Virus record (IMG/VR): IMGVR_UViG_3300045988_020504
Location: 1-39,734 of that record
From: a virus
Reading direction: 5' to 3' (one strand)
Length of the DNA: 39,734 nt
Shown piece after piece: positions 10,373 through 33,318 of this stretch. Made by a program: the position numbers and the translations under genes. Under the pieces are notes generated by a model. It was not told the origin of the DNA. It made no database searches and worked only from the letters and a program-made list of their open reading frames with translations. Positions within the stretch are counted from its first letter, which is position 1. Every line of letters begins with the position of its first letter.

Positions 10373-10412
10373 ACACGCCCTGCCAATCAAGGCAGGGCGT
10401 GTCTTCTGGTTT
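10373..10412. terminator. Bidirectional terminator between convergent genes (also an attP candidate)
   Basis: Perfect 12-bp stem ACACGCCCTGCC / GGCAGGGCGTGT with loop AATCAA. An A-run lies upstream and CTTCTGGTTT downstream. The integrase stop codon sits in the loop. Confidence 0.65.
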
Positions 10413-12048
10413 GGATGAAAACCATTCCCACAACGGTAATTGTGTTCGGATTTGCGTCCAATGGTGACCCAACACGCCCTATATCCGAACACGGGGATGC
10501 TGCTGGAGTAGGAACGCGATATGTCTTTGATGGGATCTGCGTCAGCCGGTAGGCGGTCACAAATTTCAGGAATCCCGGCTCGTCATCGTAAACGGTGACG
10601 GAATTTACAAGCATTTCAATAAGCATAGCTTTCTGGGTTTCCAGCGGAACCGCCTTTTCTCTTACCGCTTTCAGATAAACCACGACAGATTCCTTTGTGA
10701 GCGGAATCACACCGCGTTCTTCATCGGATAGCTGGGTAGCCAGCCCCTTTTTTTGGGATTCCAATTCAGCAAGTCTTTCCACAATAGCGTCCGGCGCAGC
10801 GGAAGCACATTCAAGCGCTTTCGTCAGATTGCGGATTTTAATTTCAATTTCAGAAATCTTTTTTCGTATGACCGGAATCTGTGTATTCTTCTGAATGTCT
10901 TCCTCTGACTGCCGGGCGGCTACTTCTGCCACAAATTCGATAATTTCGTCTGTCAGTACGTCAAGAGCGTCCTGAGCTACCACATCTTCCAGCCAGTCCT
11001 TCGGGACTGGCTTTTTGTCGCATAAGTGGGTCTTCTTTCTATTGGCGCAGGAATAATAATTGTAAGTCTTCCCACCTTTTCCTCTGCCGCACTCCCCCAC
11101 CATGGGAGCGCCGCAGTGACCGCAGAAAATTTTCCCAGACAAAAGATACGGCACCTTCGCCTTACCTCTGGCTGGGGCTTGCTCGCTGGTTTTCAGCCTG
11201 GATTGTACAGCCCGCCAAAGCTCATCGGATATAATTCTGGGGACGGCGTTGTCTGTGCGAACATCGTCAAACTTGTAAACCCCGATATATTTCTCGTTCC
11301 GGAACACGTTCTTAAAACTGGACTTGTTGAATTTCGTTCCTCGCGTTGTCCTGTACCCACGGGCGTTGAAATCGTCGCAGATCGCGGCCACGGTATCGCC
11401 GTCTGCATACCGGCGAAATGCTTCCTCAACCAAATGGGCAGCCATGGGGTCGATTTGCAGGCGCTTATCCACGACAGTGTATCCTAGCGGTGTAGTGCCG
11501 CCTGTACTGTTCCCTTTTCTGGCTGTTTCGCTCATGCCGCGACGTACCTTCTGGGACAGCTCCAGAGAATAATACTCCGCCATACCTTCCAGCAGGGCTT
11601 CCAGAATCACACCCTCCGGGTTCTTGGAAATGCCCTCTTTCGCGGATTCCACGTTACAGCCGTTCTTCCTGAGCCGCATGCGTGCAATGGCGCTGTCTTC
11701 CCGGTTCCGGGCAAATCTATCCAGCTTGTAAACCAAAACGGTTTTCCATGACGATCTGGCGCTGTCAGCAAGCATCTGCTGGAACGCTGGCCGCTTGTCC
11801 ATGCTTGCGTGGGCGGAAATCGCCCGGTCAACATAAATGGCGGCAACCCGGTAGCTGTGGTGCTTGCAATAGGCTATCAGCTCCCGAAGCTGCCCTTCGA
11901 TGGACTGCTCTGTCTGCCGGTCGGAACTGTAGCGCATATACAGGCAGCAGACCGCCTCGCAGTCCGAGGAAAGAACGGAGGGGTTATCCGCAAACTGCTG
12001 TCTTTCATCCGGTGTAAGAGCCGATAGATCAATTGGTATTGTTTGCAT
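10387..12048 (-). CDS. int: Large serine recombinase (phage integrase)
   Basis: 553 aa. It has the resolvase catalytic motif YMRYSSDRQ...VYKLDRFARN, a recombinase domain, a zinc ribbon (CGHCGAPM...YYSCANRK) and a coiled coil. Confidence 0.92.
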   Translation of the reverse strand: MQTIPIDLSALTPDERQQFADNPSVLSSDCEAVCCLYMRYSSDRQTEQSIEGQLRELIAYCKHHSYRVAAIYVDRAISAHASMDKRPAFQQMLADSARSSWKTVLVYKLDRFARNREDSAIARMRLRKNGCNVESAKEGISKNPEGVILEALLEGMAEYYSLELSQKVRRGMSETARKGNSTGGTTPLGYTVVDKRLQIDPMAAHLVEEAFRRYADGDTVAAICDDFNARGYRTTRGTKFNKSSFKNVFRNEKYIGVYKFDDVRTDNAVPRIISDELWRAVQSRLKTSEQAPARGKAKVPYLLSGKIFCGHCGAPMVGECGRGKGGKTYNYYSCANRKKTHLCDKKPVPKDWLEDVVAQDALDVLTDEIIEFVAEVAARQSEEDIQKNTQIPVIRKKISEIEIKIRNLTKALECASAAPDAIVERLAELESQKKGLATQLSDEERGVIPLTKESVVVYLKAVREKAVPLETQKAMLIEMLVNSVTVYDDEPGFLKFVTAYRLTQIPSKTYRVPTPAASPCSDIGRVGSPLDANPNTITVVGMVFIQTRRHALP

Positions 12049-12953: not shown

Positions 12954-13085
12954 ATGCGGGAGGAAGCTTTGAAGATGTTTGAACAGCTTAGTGAAGAGGA
13001 CAAGGAAAAGATCATCGCTCTTGCATCTGCTCTTTTACAAGATCAGACAGAGTTTCATAAAGACGTGCCTGTCTCTCCGGTGTGA
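12954..13085 (+). CDS. Possible 43-aa ORF (MREEALKMFEQLSEEDKEKIIALASALLQDQ...) overlapping the repressor 3' end convergently
   Basis: AAAGGAGAG lies 7 nt upstream of the ATG. It is below the ORF-track cutoff. The peptide resembles the helical C-terminal tails of Clostridial XRE regulators. Confidence 0.35.
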   Translation: MREEALKMFEQLSEEDKEKIIALASALLQDQTEFHKDVPVSPV

Positions 13086-13425
13086 GCATGTCATACATCT
13101 TCATGAAAACCTCGGTTCCCTTGCTGGGAGCCGGGGCTTTTTCTGTTTCCTGGGCTTTTTCTGCCCTATTCTCTGCCCTATTCATAGTATATTTCTCAAA
13201 CTCAGTCCTATTAAAAATAGCTGCTCTTTGTGAATTGACTACACTGTAGATGTCAGATGCAGGTATTCCAAAGAAATCTGCTATTCTCATGATTTGTGAA
13301 TCCCTCGGTACTGAGCCGTTTTTCCAGCCAGACACAGAAGACTTTGAAAGCCCAATTTGCTGCGCAGCTTTTGAAGGGCTTATCTTCGCCCTATTGCAAA
13401 GCTCGACAAAGTAATTGTAAAACAT
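13012..13425 (-). CDS. CI-like repressor (XRE-family HTH)
   Basis: 137 aa. MFYNYFVELCNRAKISPSKAAQQIGLSKSSVSGWKNGSVPRDSQIMRIADFFGIP is a classic HTH_3 motif. The gene is divergent from the early genes and has AGGAGGTGTTTTTAGGAG upstream. Confidence 0.88.
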   Translation of the reverse strand: MFYNYFVELCNRAKISPSKAAQQIGLSKSSVSGWKNGSVPRDSQIMRIADFFGIPASDIYSVVNSQRAAIFNRTEFEKYTMNRAENRAEKAQETEKAPAPSKGTEVFMKMYDMLTPERQARLYETLSDLVKEQMQER

Positions 13426-13488
13426 CTCCTAAAAACACCTCCTGTAATTGTGCATATCGGCAAAAATGAACGAATTGTACTTTTGGTG

Positions 13489-13517
13489 TTGACAAACTGA
13501 ACCTTTTGAACTATACT
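13489..13517 (+). promoter_or_regulatory. Early (lytic) promoter, consensus-like sigma-A: TTGACA-17-TATACT
   Basis: TTGACA at 13489-13494, a 17-nt spacer, then TATACT at 13512-13517. It lies 64 bp from the repressor start codon and points to the early genes. Confidence 0.75.
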
Positions 13518-13632
13518 AACGTCATGAACACCGATTCCAAAAAGGGTGCAGAAAATCACGGGGTATGAAATCCGAGTTTTCGGAAATTCAAACTCCGGCG
13601 AGTAGCGGATGGTTTATTGTTTCGGCAAATTC

Positions 13633-13661
13633 AGTATACCATGCGCTACTCAGATTTTCAA
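13633..13661 (-). promoter_or_regulatory. Minus-strand promoter TTGAAA-17-(TGG)TATACT facing the early promoter and reading toward the repressor gene
   Basis: The reverse complement of 13633-13661 reads TTGAAAATCTGAGTAGCGCATGGTATACT, i.e. -35, a 17-nt spacer and an extended -10. Confidence 0.65.
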
Positions 13662-13690
13662 GTCTTTTGTGGAAAAAATGTTCAAAGAAA

Positions 13691-13707
13691 TTGACTGCGG
13701 CGGAAAG
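13691..13707. repeat. Left copy of a perfect 17-bp inverted repeat TTGACTGCGGCGGAAAG
   Basis: Exact reverse complement of 14011-14027. The match does not extend in either direction. Confidence 0.95.
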
Positions 13708-13992
13708 AAAAATTCACCCGTGGTTTGGTCACGAGTGAATTTTCCCCAAATTTATTTGCCGAAATGCGCTGCGTTGGAAGTCCGTATTCCTAAACGGCGA
13801 GAAACCCTAGATTCCCGCTTTACTTTCAACAGCAGACCAAACCTGCGTCCTTGACGCACCGTTTCACTTTGGCAGTTTCGGTTCTGCCCCTCGCCCTAAC
13901 GCATCACGCCACCTTCGTGGTTCGGTACTGGCGGTAACAAAAGTTTGTTGGACATAAAGTGCCTCCTCACTCTTTATTTGCCGCAACGGGCT
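13703..13992 (-). ncRNA. Predicted ~290-nt minus-strand transcript, antisense to the early-operon leader; carries a 19-codon ORF with a strong RBS
   Basis: It is bounded by the 14027-13999 promoter and the 13743-13708 hairpin plus T-run. GAGGAGG lies 6 nt before the ATG at 13955 (MSNKLLLPPVPNHEGGVMR). Several internal hairpins are visible, e.g. GGCAG-AACCGAAA-CTGCC and TGCGTC-AAG-GACGCA. No transcript data are available. Confidence 0.4.
13708..13743. terminator. Bidirectional terminator-like hairpin at the left edge of the inverted-repeat-bracketed segment
   Basis: AAAATTCACCCGTG-GTTTGGT-CACGAGTGAATTTT with one mismatch. An A-tract and a T-tract flank it, so either strand reads a hairpin followed by a U-run. 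Confidence 0.55.
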
Positions 13993-13998
13993 ATGGGC

Positions 13999-14027
13999 AT
14001 TATAGCGAACCTTTCCGCCGCAGTCAA
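13999..14027 (-). promoter_or_regulatory. Near-consensus minus-strand promoter TTGACT-17-TATAAT (-35 inside the right inverted repeat, -10 inside the bracketed segment)
   Basis: The reverse complement of 13999-14027 is TTGACTGCGGCGGAAAGGTTCGCTATAAT. Confidence 0.7.
14011..14027. repeat. Right copy of the perfect 17-bp inverted repeat (CTTTCCGCCGCAGTCAA)
   Basis: Exact reverse complement of 13691-13707. It contains the -35 hexamer of the minus-strand promoter. Confidence 0.95.
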
Positions 14028-14067
14028 CCAAACAAACATTTTTTACTTAAGGAGGAGGGACAAATGG

Positions 14068-14361
14068 ATGGCAAAACTGAAACTTCCGCAGTCTTACGGG
14101 GAGCGGGAGAAACTGGCAAAGTATATCCGGCAGACGCTGAACACCTACAATCTTCGGAACAACTGGCTGATTCAGCAGCTTCGGAACGAGGGCTTCATCA
14201 TTTCCGCGACATCCCTGTGCGACGCGCTGGCAGTTCGGTGCATGACACCGAAGACGGACGAGTTTCTGGCCAGAGCGGAGCAGATTTGCAAGCTGTACGA
14301 GCAGAGCTGCTTCGGTCAAACGCGATCCGGGAGCTTGGGAAACGGGTCAGAGCGTTCATGA
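14068..14361 (+). CDS. First early gene, small DNA-binding-like protein (Cro-position); the C-terminus probably continues in the -1 frame to 14426
   Basis: AAGGAGGAGGG lies 7 nt upstream of ATG 14068 (MAKLKLPQSYGEREKLAKYIRQTLNTYNLRNNWLIQQLRNEGFIISATSLCDAL...). The last ~15 codons are low complexity, while the overlapping frame reads AELLRSNAIRELGKRVRAFMKEQPDIYERIYRETYG. Confidence 0.6.
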   Translation: MAKLKLPQSYGEREKLAKYIRQTLNTYNLRNNWLIQQLRNEGFIISATSLCDALAVRCMTPKTDEFLARAEQICKLYEQSCFGQTRSGSLGNGSERS

Positions 14362-14438
14362 AAGAGCAACCGGACATCTACGAGCGGATTTACCGCGAGA
14401 CATACGGCAGATCGCCGAACTTTTGAAAGGAGTTATTT

Positions 14439-17074: not shown

Positions 17075-17545
17075 ATGGGAAAATATACACACGGGAAATC
17101 AAACACGAGATTGTACGGAATCTGGACGGGCATGAAGACTAGGTGCTATGACAAGAGGTGCGATAAGTATTACAGGTACGGAGCAAGGGGGATTTCGCTT
17201 TGTGATGACTGGGCGAGAGACTTTTCCACTTTCTATGACTGGGCGGTTGCTAACGGATACTCCGACAATCTGACGATTGACCGTATCGATAACGACGGGA
17301 ATTACTGCCCAGAGAATTGCCGATGGATAACAGCTGCTGAGCAAGCGGCGAACAAATCTACTAACCACCGCGTTTCGCACGCTGGTCAGACCCACACTAT
17401 CGCTGAATGGGCAAGAATTACGGGGTTAGACAGAGCGCTTTTAAAGGATAGGATTGTCCGCTATGGGTGGGAACCAGAAAGGGCGCTTACTACTCCGGCA
17501 AGGCCACATAAAAAATACGAATATGCCAACAGGAGGGCAATTTAA
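17075..17545 (+). CDS. Free-standing HNH/AP2-like homing endonuclease
   Basis: YGIWTGMKTRCYD...YRYGARGISLCDDW..F..FYDWAVANGYSDNLTIDRIDNDGNYCPENCRWIT is the phage HNH-3/AP2-type pattern. Confidence 0.75.
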   Translation: MGKYTHGKSNTRLYGIWTGMKTRCYDKRCDKYYRYGARGISLCDDWARDFSTFYDWAVANGYSDNLTIDRIDNDGNYCPENCRWITAAEQAANKSTNHRVSHAGQTHTIAEWARITGLDRALLKDRIVRYGWEPERALTTPARPHKKYEYANRRAI

Positions 17546-33229: not shown

Positions 33230-33318
33230 ATACCATTTTTGCCGTGGCAGGCGTAAAACGAGCCGACAGCAGGGGACGCAACCCCCATATAACAAAGCAT
33301 AGCTGAGAAAGGAAGTAT

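What the first reader, a model, noticed from the sequence alone, without database searches (positions are those of the whole stretch)
13691..14027. Perfect 17-bp inverted repeats bracket a promoter-to-terminator cassette in the immunity region (candidate invertible switch or antisense immunity RNA)
TTGACTGCGGCGGAAAG (13691-13707) recurs as its exact reverse complement at 14011-14027, enclosing 303 bp with no credible ORF of 60 aa or more. The right repeat supplies the -35 (TTGACT) of a near-consensus minus-strand promoter. Its -10 (TATAAT, 14004-13999) lies just inside the segment. The other end of the segment carries a bidirectional terminator hairpin (13708-13743). As drawn, the cassette makes a ~290-nt RNA antisense to the 550-nt leader of the early lytic operon. 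That RNA contains a 19-codon ORF with a perfect GAGGAGG-6 nt-ATG. Because the -35 sits in both repeats, inverting the segment would rebuild the same promoter on the + strand, pointing at the early genes. This inverted-repeat-flanked promoter geometry matches known invertons such as the C. difficile flgB/cwpV switches and hin/hix. I do not know of it being described as part of a phage lysis-lysogeny switch. Other readings are a long-range 17-bp RNA helix closing a large structured leader, or two looping operator sites. An 11-nt direct repeat TTTATTTGCCG (13751 and 13974) lies just inside both ends.
Basis: partly seen in the sequence, partly recalled or inferred. Interest (0 to 1): 0.85.

Follow-up and report, generated by a model that had tools for sequence, protein, structure and literature searches.

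The report
Inverted repeats closing a FuFi-1 cassette
The perfect 17-bp inverted repeat is real, but it is not a flip-switch: it marks the two ends of a ~350-bp small-RNA gene cassette of the known but unexplained FuFi-1 family, set backwards in the leader of a gut prophage's early lytic operon, and the arms most likely pair in the lytic transcript to loop the cassette out.

Summary
The arms 13691-13707 and 14011-14027 are a perfect 17-bp inverted repeat, the only long-range one in the window.

The enclosed segment is a minus-strand unit: a near-consensus promoter, an SD-led 19-codon mini-ORF, FuFi-1 RNA (Rfam RF02986, 86 bits) and a terminator. It lies antisense in the leader of the early operon, next to a CI-like repressor.

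The inverton reading is not supported. There were no flipped junctions against 28 native ones. There were no swapped flanks among 43 related loci. Arm sequences are unrelated between relatives.

Sibling phages with the same early gene either carry the cassette with both arms (14) or lack all of it (10). This is a clean ~351-nt indel.

Bracketing repeats recur in 12 of 48 FuFi-1 cassette clusters, with different sequences and compensatory changes. In the window's arm family, 15 of 16 one-sided changes are G·U on the + strand.

Best reading (about 0.5): a long-range RNA stem in the early transcript closes off the antisense cassette. A role as an RNase III or insulation stem is inferred, not shown. 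The RNA family is known. The closing repeat and the operon placement were not found described in the one paper I could search.

The parts
13691..13707 (.). Left arm of the 17-bp inverted repeat. It lies 1 nt after the FuFi-1 terminator U-run on the minus strand, and it is the 5' half of the proposed stem in the + strand early transcript.
   Evidence: (I3)
14011..14027 (.). Right arm of the inverted repeat. It is the -35 hexamer (TTGACT) plus 11 nt of spacer of the FuFi-1 promoter, and the 3' half of the proposed stem in the + strand transcript.
13673..13682 (.). Outer 10-bp repeat, left copy (AAAAAATGTT). It is also present in cassette-less relatives.
   Evidence: (I10)
14035..14044 (.). Outer 10-bp repeat, right copy (AACATTTTTT). 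The alignment places most of it (14035-14039) in the segment that cassette-less relatives lack. It ends 6 nt before the SD of the first early gene.
   Evidence: (I10)
13689..14039 (-). The ~351-nt cassette as delimited by the indel against sibling phages that lack it. Both arms lie at its ends.
13999..14027 (-). Sigma-70-type promoter of the FuFi-1 unit (TTGACT, 17 nt, TATAAT). A promoter at this position is conserved in all FuFi-1 cassette types examined.
13896..13955 (-). 19-codon mini-ORF behind GAGGAGG (13968-13962). The N-terminal motif M-T/S-K/N-L-L-x-L-P-V/A-P recurs in 32 cassette clusters. Translation is not established.
13708..13913 (-). FuFi-1 RNA (Rfam RF02986): full-length model match, 86.4 bits against a gathering score of 59.6. 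It includes the terminator hairpin 13743-13709 and the U-run.
13489..13517 (+). Early lytic promoter (TTGACA, 17 nt, TATACT). It is the only + strand promoter-like site between the repressor gene and the first early gene, so its transcript must cross the whole cassette.
13633..13661 (-). Second minus-strand promoter-like site (TTGAAA, 17 nt with TG, TATACT). It faces the early promoter and reads toward the repressor gene.
13012..13425 (-). CI/Cro-type HTH repressor gene (137 aa).
14065..14361 (+). First early gene (98 aa, no family match). Its SD lies 24 nt after the right arm.
13751..13770 (-). Direct-repeat copy 1. On the RNA strand it is the conserved single-stranded motif ...GGCAAAUAAAUUUGG just before the terminator.
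   Evidence: (D1)
13973..13992 (-). Direct-repeat copy 2. On the RNA strand it covers the 5' hairpin region (GCGGCAAAUAAA) just ahead of the SD.
   Evidence: (D1)

Best explanation
The repeat arms are the two ends of a self-contained, non-invertible small-RNA cassette of about 350 bp on the minus strand. The cassette runs: promoter, short SD-led mini-ORF, FuFi-1 structured RNA, intrinsic terminator. It sits inside the 5' leader of the prophage's early lytic operon, next to the CI-like repressor.

One arm is the -35 hexamer and spacer of the FuFi-1 promoter. The other arm is a complementary copy placed directly after the FuFi-1 terminator. The FuFi-1 RNA itself contains neither arm. The + strand early transcript has to read through the cassette to reach the early genes, and it contains both arms.

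The arms therefore most likely pair in that transcript. The stem would be 17 bp, extended by an outer 10 bp. It would close the 303-nt antisense copy of the cassette into a looped-out domain and bring the upstream leader back next to the ribosome-binding site of the first early gene.

Shown: the cassette anatomy, its presence/absence polymorphism, conserved and co-varying complementarity, and the lack of inversion.

Inferred: that the stem forms in vivo on the + strand; that it serves as an RNase III processing or insulation stem, comparable to rRNA processing stalks and rRNA intervening sequences; and that FuFi-1 acts as a convergent antisense gate on early lytic transcription.
For: (1) FuFi-1 is matched above Rfam's gathering score in the window and in 16/16 representative related loci.

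(2) Bracketing complementarity scores at least 12 in 12 of 48 cassette clusters. A cross-locus null has a 99th percentile of 11. The arms have unrelated sequences: L183 27/27, L150 27/28, L090 24/25, L186 27/29.

(3) Within the window's arm family (13 distinct arm pairs), 5 pairs show compensatory double changes. On the + strand 95.9% of cells pair, against 90.5% on the FuFi-sense strand. Of 16 internal one-sided changes, 15 are G·U on the + strand. Slid controls give 27-62%.

(4) The only + strand promoter is upstream of the left arm. There is no room for a promoter between the right arm and the early gene. The MFE and centroid folds of the + strand RNA both contain the stem.

(5) Across IR-bearing and IR-less relatives, the cassette always lies antisense downstream of a strong early promoter. 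It sits either in the leader or just after a cro-like HTH gene, and upstream of further early genes.

(6) Sibling phages with the same early gene show a clean ~351-nt indel that carries both arms.

(7) The same arm core occurs in about 7 unrelated flank contexts, so no flank-encoded sequence-specific protein is likely to be needed.
Against: There are no transcript or cleavage data. Stem formation and any RNase III role are inferred.

Three quarters of FuFi-1 cassette clusters have no significant bracketing repeat in the same genomic context. The stem is therefore dispensable for the cassette.

The strand test is not uniform. In L140, L070 and L164 the mismatches are G·U on the FuFi-sense strand instead. 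Duplex energies do not favour one strand consistently. Pooled over all families the wobble count is roughly 18:10, which is not decisive.

In L070, L218 and L191 the promoter-side arm lies inside the FuFi-1 transcript, so sense-strand pairing after terminator read-through is also physically possible there.
Confidence: 0.5

Rival explanations
1. Invertible promoter switch (inverton). A recombinase flips 13708-14010 between the two arms and redirects the promoter.
For: The geometry fits: inverted repeats flank a promoter. A large serine recombinase gene lies 1.6 kb away at 10387-12048.
Against: The flipped junction was found 0 times in metagenome and viral contigs, against 16 + 12 native junctions. 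Among 43 loci there were 820 same-orientation flank matches and 0 swapped ones. Arms in related cassettes are unrelated in sequence, and one lies inside a coding sequence. The recombinase matches the phage integrase family phrog_95 at 1.6e-116. After inversion the terminator would still separate the promoter from the early genes. Assemblies report only the majority orientation, so rare flipping is not excluded.
Confidence: 0.03
2. Terminal inverted repeats of a mobile (MITE-like) DNA cassette. The arms would be DNA-level signals for the insertion or exchange of the FuFi-1 module between phages.
For: Both arms sit at the ends of a clean presence/absence indel. Homology between cassettes in about 7 unrelated flank contexts stops at the outer ends of the arms, give or take 1 nt.
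Against: There is no consistent target-site duplication. IR-less FuFi-1 cassettes show equally sharp module boundaries at the -35 and at the terminator T-run, so sharp ends are not specific to the repeats. Arms in other families are unrelated in sequence, so no single transposase could recognise them. Cassettes always occupy the same functional position and orientation. A DNA-level signal does not predict the strand-asymmetric G·U pattern.
Confidence: 0.17
3. A pair of protein operator sites. One regulator would bind both arms, repressing the FuFi-1 promoter at its -35 and looping the DNA to the site upstream of the repressor-directed promoter.
For: The right arm overlaps the -35 and spacer. 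The left arm ends 30 bp upstream of the -35 of the minus-strand promoter at 13661.
Against: There is no third copy near the early promoter, where the repressor must act. In sibling phages the immunity-specific repeats sit in the early-promoter spacer and change with repressor type, and they do not resemble the arms. The same arm core occurs with different flanking regulators. Arm position relative to the promoter varies between families: upstream of the -35, on it, or on the RNA's SD region. The arms are not palindromic.
Confidence: 0.07
4. No function in the early transcript. The repeat would either act in read-through FuFi-1 transcripts or be a neutral by-product of inverted duplication, for example replication template switching around the terminator hairpin.
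For: In L140 the promoter-side arm is an inverted copy of part of a cro-like coding sequence. The window's right outer repeat is an inverted copy of flank sequence that is present in empty sites. Both suggest a duplicative origin. L140 and L070 mismatches favour the sense strand. In three families the arm lies within the sense transcript.
Against: In the window family the promoter-side arm is upstream of the transcription start, so it cannot be in the FuFi-1 RNA. Independent recurrence at the same structural position in 12 of 48 clusters, together with compensatory changes, argues for selection on pairing.
Confidence: 0.15

Closest known systems
FuFi-1 RNA motif (Rfam RF02986; Weinberg et al. 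2017, PMC5737381)
   Same: The window has a full-length match above the gathering score, with the three stem-loops and the 3' intrinsic terminator. The host range is Firmicutes and the setting is a prophage. [quoted passage not shown] It reports that they are rarely in 5' UTRs and that no self-cleavage was seen.
   Different: The Rfam model starts about 80 nt downstream of the predicted transcription start. It does not cover the conserved promoter, 5' hairpin, SD and mini-ORF. Neither the bracketing inverted repeat nor the antisense placement inside early lytic operons appears in the main text of the only paper I could find and read. Its supplement was not available.
Cis-antisense RNAs of temperate phages (lambda OOP against cII, P22 sar against ant) and face-to-face promoter switches (coliphage 186/P2). 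From my own knowledge; OOP also appears among the results.
   Same: A short RNA with its own promoter and terminator is encoded convergently inside the early lytic transcription unit, next to the repressor. The expected modes of action are transcriptional interference and RNase III-sensitive duplexes.
   Different: FuFi-1 is much more structured and is conserved as a fold. It comes with a conserved mini-ORF. It is a portable module that is present or absent between sibling phages. None of those systems is described with flanking complementary arms.
RNase III processing stalks of rRNA operons and intervening sequences (IVS) in 23S rRNA (my own knowledge)
   Same: Complementary segments flank an inserted or embedded RNA and pair over a long range in the host transcript. 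The sequences vary while the pairing is kept. The insert is optional between close relatives.
   Different: Here the host RNA is an mRNA leader or intercistronic region, and the looped-out segment is the antisense copy of an independent gene. Cleavage is untested. The window's core stem is 17 bp, short for RNase III unless the outer 10 bp also forms.
Invertons (hin/hix, C. difficile flgB and cwpV switches; PhaseFinder-type elements)
   Same: Inverted repeats flank a promoter-bearing segment of a few hundred bp.
   Different: No second orientation was seen, there is no dedicated invertase, and there is no conserved recombination core. Relatives carry unrelated arms.
Phage morons (independent promoter-gene-terminator units inserted between phage genes; my own knowledge)
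   Same: The cassette is a discrete unit with its own promoter and terminator. It is present or absent between close relatives and is exchanged among phage backgrounds, with homology ending at the promoter and the terminator.
   Different: Its product is a structured RNA, possibly with a mini-peptide. It is always antisense within the early operon rather than being an accessory gene in the late region.

Membership tests
FuFi-1 RNA (RF02986) | Covariance-model score at or above Rfam's gathering score over the full model | tested here: met
   86.4 bits against 59.6, model positions 1-175 of 175, E 3e-17. 16/16 related loci also pass.
FuFi-1 RNA (RF02986) | 3' Rho-independent terminator, indicating a discrete transcript | tested here: met
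   A 14-bp hairpin with one mismatch at 13743-13709, followed by UUUUU.
FuFi-1 RNA (RF02986) | Firmicutes/Fusobacteria host and prophage neighbourhood | tested here: met
   Integrase, CI-like repressor and RecE/RecT genes in the window. Genome hits are in Lachnospiraceae, Oscillospiraceae and related families.
Inverton (invertible promoter) | Inverted repeats flanking a promoter | tested here: met
Inverton (invertible promoter) | Both orientations occur in natural populations | tested here: not met
   0 flipped against 28 native junctions in assemblies, and 0 swapped flanks in 820 matches. Raw reads were not available.
Inverton (invertible promoter) | Dedicated invertase and a conserved recombination core in the repeats | tested here: not met
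   The only nearby recombinase is an integrase-type large serine recombinase. Arms in related cassettes are unrelated in sequence.
TIR-bounded mobile element (MITE-like) | Terminal inverted repeats at the ends of a presence/absence indel | tested here: met
TIR-bounded mobile element (MITE-like) | Target-site duplication | tested here: not met
   No consistent direct repeat at the junctions in about 7 contexts. One context (L002) has a 12-nt direct repeat matching 11/12.
TIR-bounded mobile element (MITE-like) | Cognate transposase and insertion at many unrelated sites | tested here: inconclusive
   Cassettes occur in several phage backgrounds, but always at the same functional position and orientation. 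No transposase was searched for.
Cis-antisense regulatory RNA of a phage switch (OOP/sar-like) | Own promoter and terminator, convergent overlap with the lytic transcript | tested here: met
   Sequence-level predictions only.
Cis-antisense regulatory RNA of a phage switch (OOP/sar-like) | Demonstrated effect on target RNA level or on the lysis-lysogeny decision | not testable with these tools
   Needs transcriptomics and genetics.
RNase III processing stalk / IVS-like closing stem | Long-range flanking complementarity kept through covariation | tested here: met
   5 compensatory pairs, 95.9% pairing on the + strand, unrelated arm sequences in other families.
RNase III processing stalk / IVS-like closing stem | Staggered double-strand cleavage in the stem by RNase III | not testable with these tools
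   Needs RNA end mapping in wild type and an rnc mutant, or in vitro cleavage.

The most novel reading that the evidence does not exclude
FuFi-1 cassettes are portable antisense 'gate' modules for the lysis-lysogeny switch of Clostridia phages. They drop into the early operon, block it by convergent transcription and antisense pairing, and in some lineages carry their own closing stem. The host mRNA can then structurally, or through RNase III, excise the inserted sequence. This would be an mRNA counterpart of rRNA intervening sequences, and it would give the first functional handle on the FuFi-1 orphan RNA and its conserved mini-ORF.
Probability: 0.25. Interest if true: 0.75.

Novelty: new variant of a known kind. 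Interest (0 to 1): 0.5.

Why it matters
FuFi-1 was singled out in 2017 as one of a few widespread orphan RNAs whose conservation suggests a sophisticated function. In the library I could search, no function has been proposed since.

Three things found here turn it into an experimentally tractable element of the phage lysis-lysogeny switch:
- It always sits antisense inside the early lytic transcription unit, next to the CI/Cro genes.
- It is a present-or-absent module between sibling phages.
- It carries a conserved SD-led mini-ORF, and in a quarter of lineages a co-varying closing repeat.

Natural cassette-plus and cassette-minus phage pairs can serve as ready-made controls. The work also removes a false-positive inverton call. 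Inverted repeats around a promoter are not enough to infer phase variation.

Tried and rejected
- BLASTN of the intergenic region against GenBank phages found no match.
- Rfam at permissive E-values found nothing credible besides FuFi-1 in 13400-14150.
- The strand of pairing could not be settled from G·U against A·C mismatches pooled over all arm families: roughly 18 events favour the + strand and 10 the sense strand, and L140 and L070 point the other way. Only the window's own arm family gives a clear signal.
- RNAduplex energies of padded arms on both strands showed no consistent preference. They were confounded by terminator sequence.
- A search for further copies or empty sites of the L183 27-mer found only L183 itself.
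- A search for an empty site in one type-B flank context found none.
- An RNAalifold consensus for the 5' domain (promoter to mini-ORF) gave no convincing structure, at -2.2 kcal/mol. The SD appears unpaired.
- Coding against RNA-level conservation of the mini-ORF is unresolved. The third position of the Pro codon varies, but three lineages keep the nucleotides through a frame-shifting indel, and the C-terminus is not conserved.
- Sharp homology breakpoints at the arm ends first looked like evidence for TIR-mediated mobility. IR-less cassettes show equally sharp ends.
- I did not use the large protein-homology searches or structure prediction. The question was about nucleic acid.

Full report
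**1. The observation**

The 17-nt arms at 13691-13707 and 14011-14027 are perfectly complementary, with 303 nt between them. This is the only long-range inverted repeat in the 39.7-kb window. The 17-mer has no further copy with two or fewer mismatches. Chance expectation for matches with up to 3 mismatches is 0.06.

- a minus-strand promoter TTGACT-17-TATAAT at 14027-13999 and a + strand promoter TTGACA-17-TATACT at 13489-13517;
- a hairpin at 13709-13743;
- a 19-codon ORF behind GAGGAGG plus 6 nt;
- the direct repeat at 13751 and 13973.

An outer 10-bp inverted repeat (13673-13682 and 14035-14044) extends the complementarity across an 8 x 7-nt internal loop.

**2. What the enclosed segment is**

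Rfam places a full-length FuFi-1 RNA (RF02986) on the minus strand at 13913-13708.

FuFi-1 is an orphan motif from Weinberg et al. 2017. The paper groups it with motifs whose properties suggest a sophisticated function, that are rarely in 5' UTRs, and that show no self-cleavage. No later paper in the searchable library mentions it.

The surrounding genes are a large serine integrase (10387-12048), two HTH proteins including a CI-like repressor (13012-13425), and, on the other strand, early genes including RecE-like, HNH and RecT. The cassette therefore lies antisense in the ~540-nt leader between the early promoter and the first early gene (14065).

**3. Relatives**

Two pattern scans of viral contigs and one of GTDB genomes gave about 120 oriented FuFi-1 loci with usable flanks. 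They fall into 48 clusters at 90% identity, from gut Clostridia. Rfam confirmed 16/16 representatives.

Every unit has the same layout on its sense strand:
- a sigma-70 promoter;
- a small 5' hairpin;
- a strong SD;
- a short ORF with the conserved start M-T-K/N-L-L-x-L-P-V/A-P;
- in some types an extra ~130-nt domain;
- the Rfam FuFi-1 region and a terminator.

Whether the mini-ORF is translated is open. The SD is unpaired in a consensus fold, and the third position of the Pro codon varies. However, three lineages keep the nucleotide string through a frame-shifting indel, and the C-terminus is not conserved.

**4. Genomic context is constant**

In repeat-bearing and repeat-less loci alike, a strong opposite-strand promoter lies 240-800 nt beyond the terminator and reads toward the cassette. 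Often one or two small Cro/C1-type HTH genes come first. A CI-type repressor gene lies beyond that. More early genes start 10-60 nt past the FuFi-1 promoter. FuFi-1 cassettes thus sit antisense inside the early lytic transcription unit, either in its leader (as here) or just after cro.

**5. The repeat recurs, with different sequences**

I scored the best ungapped complementarity between the region upstream of the RNA and the 140 nt after the terminator. Twelve of 48 clusters score at least 12. A cross-locus null has mean 8.0 and a 99th percentile of 11.

The arms are unrelated between families: L183 27/27, L150 27/28, L186 27/29, L090 24/25, L140 29/34. The promoter-side arm lies on the -35 and spacer (the window and five other clusters), just upstream of it (L183, L186), or on the RNA's 5' hairpin and SD (L070, L218, L191). 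The other arm lies 3-95 nt after the terminator. In L140 and L186 it falls inside the cro-like ORF.

The only property shared by all these families is that the arms bracket the cassette and are complementary to each other.

**6. Not an inverton**

- The junction predicted for the flipped state was absent from metagenome and viral contigs. The native junction occurs in 16 metagenome contigs and 12 viral contigs.
- In an all-against-all comparison of flanks from 43 loci, 820 matches kept orientation and none was swapped.
- The nearby recombinase is integrase-type.
- Relatives have no common recombination core.
- Assemblies cannot exclude rare flipping, so I leave about 3%.

**7. A presence/absence module**

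Twenty-four viral contigs encode the same first early protein at 89-100% identity. Fourteen carry the cassette with both arms. Ten lack the cassette and both arms. The alignment shows a clean ~351-nt indel, window 13689-14039. Empty sites occur with four different repressor/early-promoter types, which points to insertion rather than repeated loss.

Homology between cassettes of the window's arm family in about 7 unrelated flank contexts stops at the outer ends of the arms. Repeat-less cassettes, however, stop just as sharply at the -35 and at the terminator T-run. There is no consistent target duplication. The cassette is therefore a discrete, moron-like module in general. The arms belong to the module, but sharp ends do not single them out as transposition signals.

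**8. Which molecule pairs?**

The FuFi-1 RNA starts downstream of the right arm and ends before the left arm. The + strand early transcript contains both arms. There is no other + strand promoter between 12800 and 14500. In empty-site relatives the same leader runs straight into the SD. Folding the + strand RNA gives the stem in both the MFE and the centroid structure.

I made formal pair counts on 13 distinct arm pairs of the window's family. There are 5 pairs with compensatory double changes. Pairing is 95.9% on the + strand against 90.5% on the sense strand. Of 16 internal one-sided changes, 15 are G·U on the + strand and non-pairs on the other strand. Slid controls give 27-62%.

L150, L090, L186 and L218 point the same way. 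L140, L070 and L164 point the other way. Duplex energies are uninformative. The strand assignment is therefore supported for the window's family but not universal.

**9. Operators are unlikely**

- There is no third copy of the 17-mer.
- The repeats that change with repressor type sit in the early-promoter spacer and look nothing like the arms.
- The same arm core occurs with different neighbours.

**10. Mechanism I commit to**

In the + strand early transcript the arms form a long-range stem. The stem loops out the antisense copy of the FuFi-1 cassette and puts the upstream leader back next to the early gene's SD.

By analogy with rRNA processing stalks and rRNA intervening sequences (my own knowledge), the stem may be an RNase III site that removes the FuFi-1-complementary segment. 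Alternatively it may simply insulate the mRNA from a highly structured, antisense-targeted insert.

FuFi-1 itself, driven by a near-consensus convergent promoter, would act as a gate on early lytic transcription. This would be in the manner of lambda OOP or P22 sar, though its conserved fold and mini-ORF suggest more than that.

The stem is optional: 36 of 48 clusters lack it. Confidence is about 0.5 for the RNA-stem reading and much less for the RNase III detail.

**11. Novelty**

The RNA family is known. The closing repeat, the indel polymorphism, the conserved promoter/SD/mini-ORF extension and the fixed antisense placement in the early operon were not found in the literature available to me. 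I classify this as a new variant of a known kind, of moderate interest.

Noticed in passing
window 33240-33301 (+): Rfam GP20-b RNA (RF03003), 43.3 bits against a gathering score of 36.2. It is another orphan cis-regulatory motif, located in the structural-gene region.
   Followed up: no
window 13489-13517 (+) and 13661-13633 (-): Two near-consensus promoters face each other with about 100-170 nt of overlapping transcription between the early promoter and the repressor-directed promoter. The arrangement resembles the face-to-face switch of coliphage 186/P2.
   Followed up: partly
window ~13527; loci L241-L263: Sibling phages share the leader from about 13527 onward. Upstream of that point they carry four different repressor genes and early-promoter spacers with type-specific short repeats (likely operators). 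This is an immunity-module swap with its breakpoint at the early transcription start.
   Followed up: partly
window 13896-13955 (-), and 32 related clusters: A conserved SD-led mini-ORF (M-T-K/N-L-L-x-L-P-V/A-P...) lies upstream of the Rfam-defined FuFi-1 region. The start codon is mostly TTG and the C-terminus is variable. It could be a leader peptide or RNA-level conservation.
   Followed up: partly
One is in the 5' hairpin region and one is in the conserved single-stranded motif before the terminator. Other cassette types show a similar pair, GGGCAA... and GGGUAAACAAA.
   Followed up: no
window 17075-17545 (+): A free-standing HNH endonuclease gene (phrog_3377, 4e-58) sits between the RecE-like exonuclease and RecT genes.
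   Followed up: no
L150 1486-1565, L033 10560-10630, L070 1551-1601: Other orphan Rfam motifs occur on the same FuFi-1-bearing phage contigs: skipping-rope RNA in L150 and L033, and 6A RNA in L070.
   Followed up: no
L129 2904-3110 and 3856-4071: Two FuFi-1 copies lie on the same strand about 950 nt apart in one viral contig.
   Followed up: no
window 14358-14426 (+): A 22-codon ORF starts with ATGA overlapping the stop codon of the first early gene (14361), read from the sequence. It may be a coupled small gene or a chance ORF.
   Followed up: no
L101 upstream flank against L009/L057 downstream flank: A 342-nt match at 96% identity, same strand, joins the upstream flank of one FuFi-1 locus to the downstream flank of others. 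This suggests a different gene order or a circular permutation, not an inversion.
   Followed up: no
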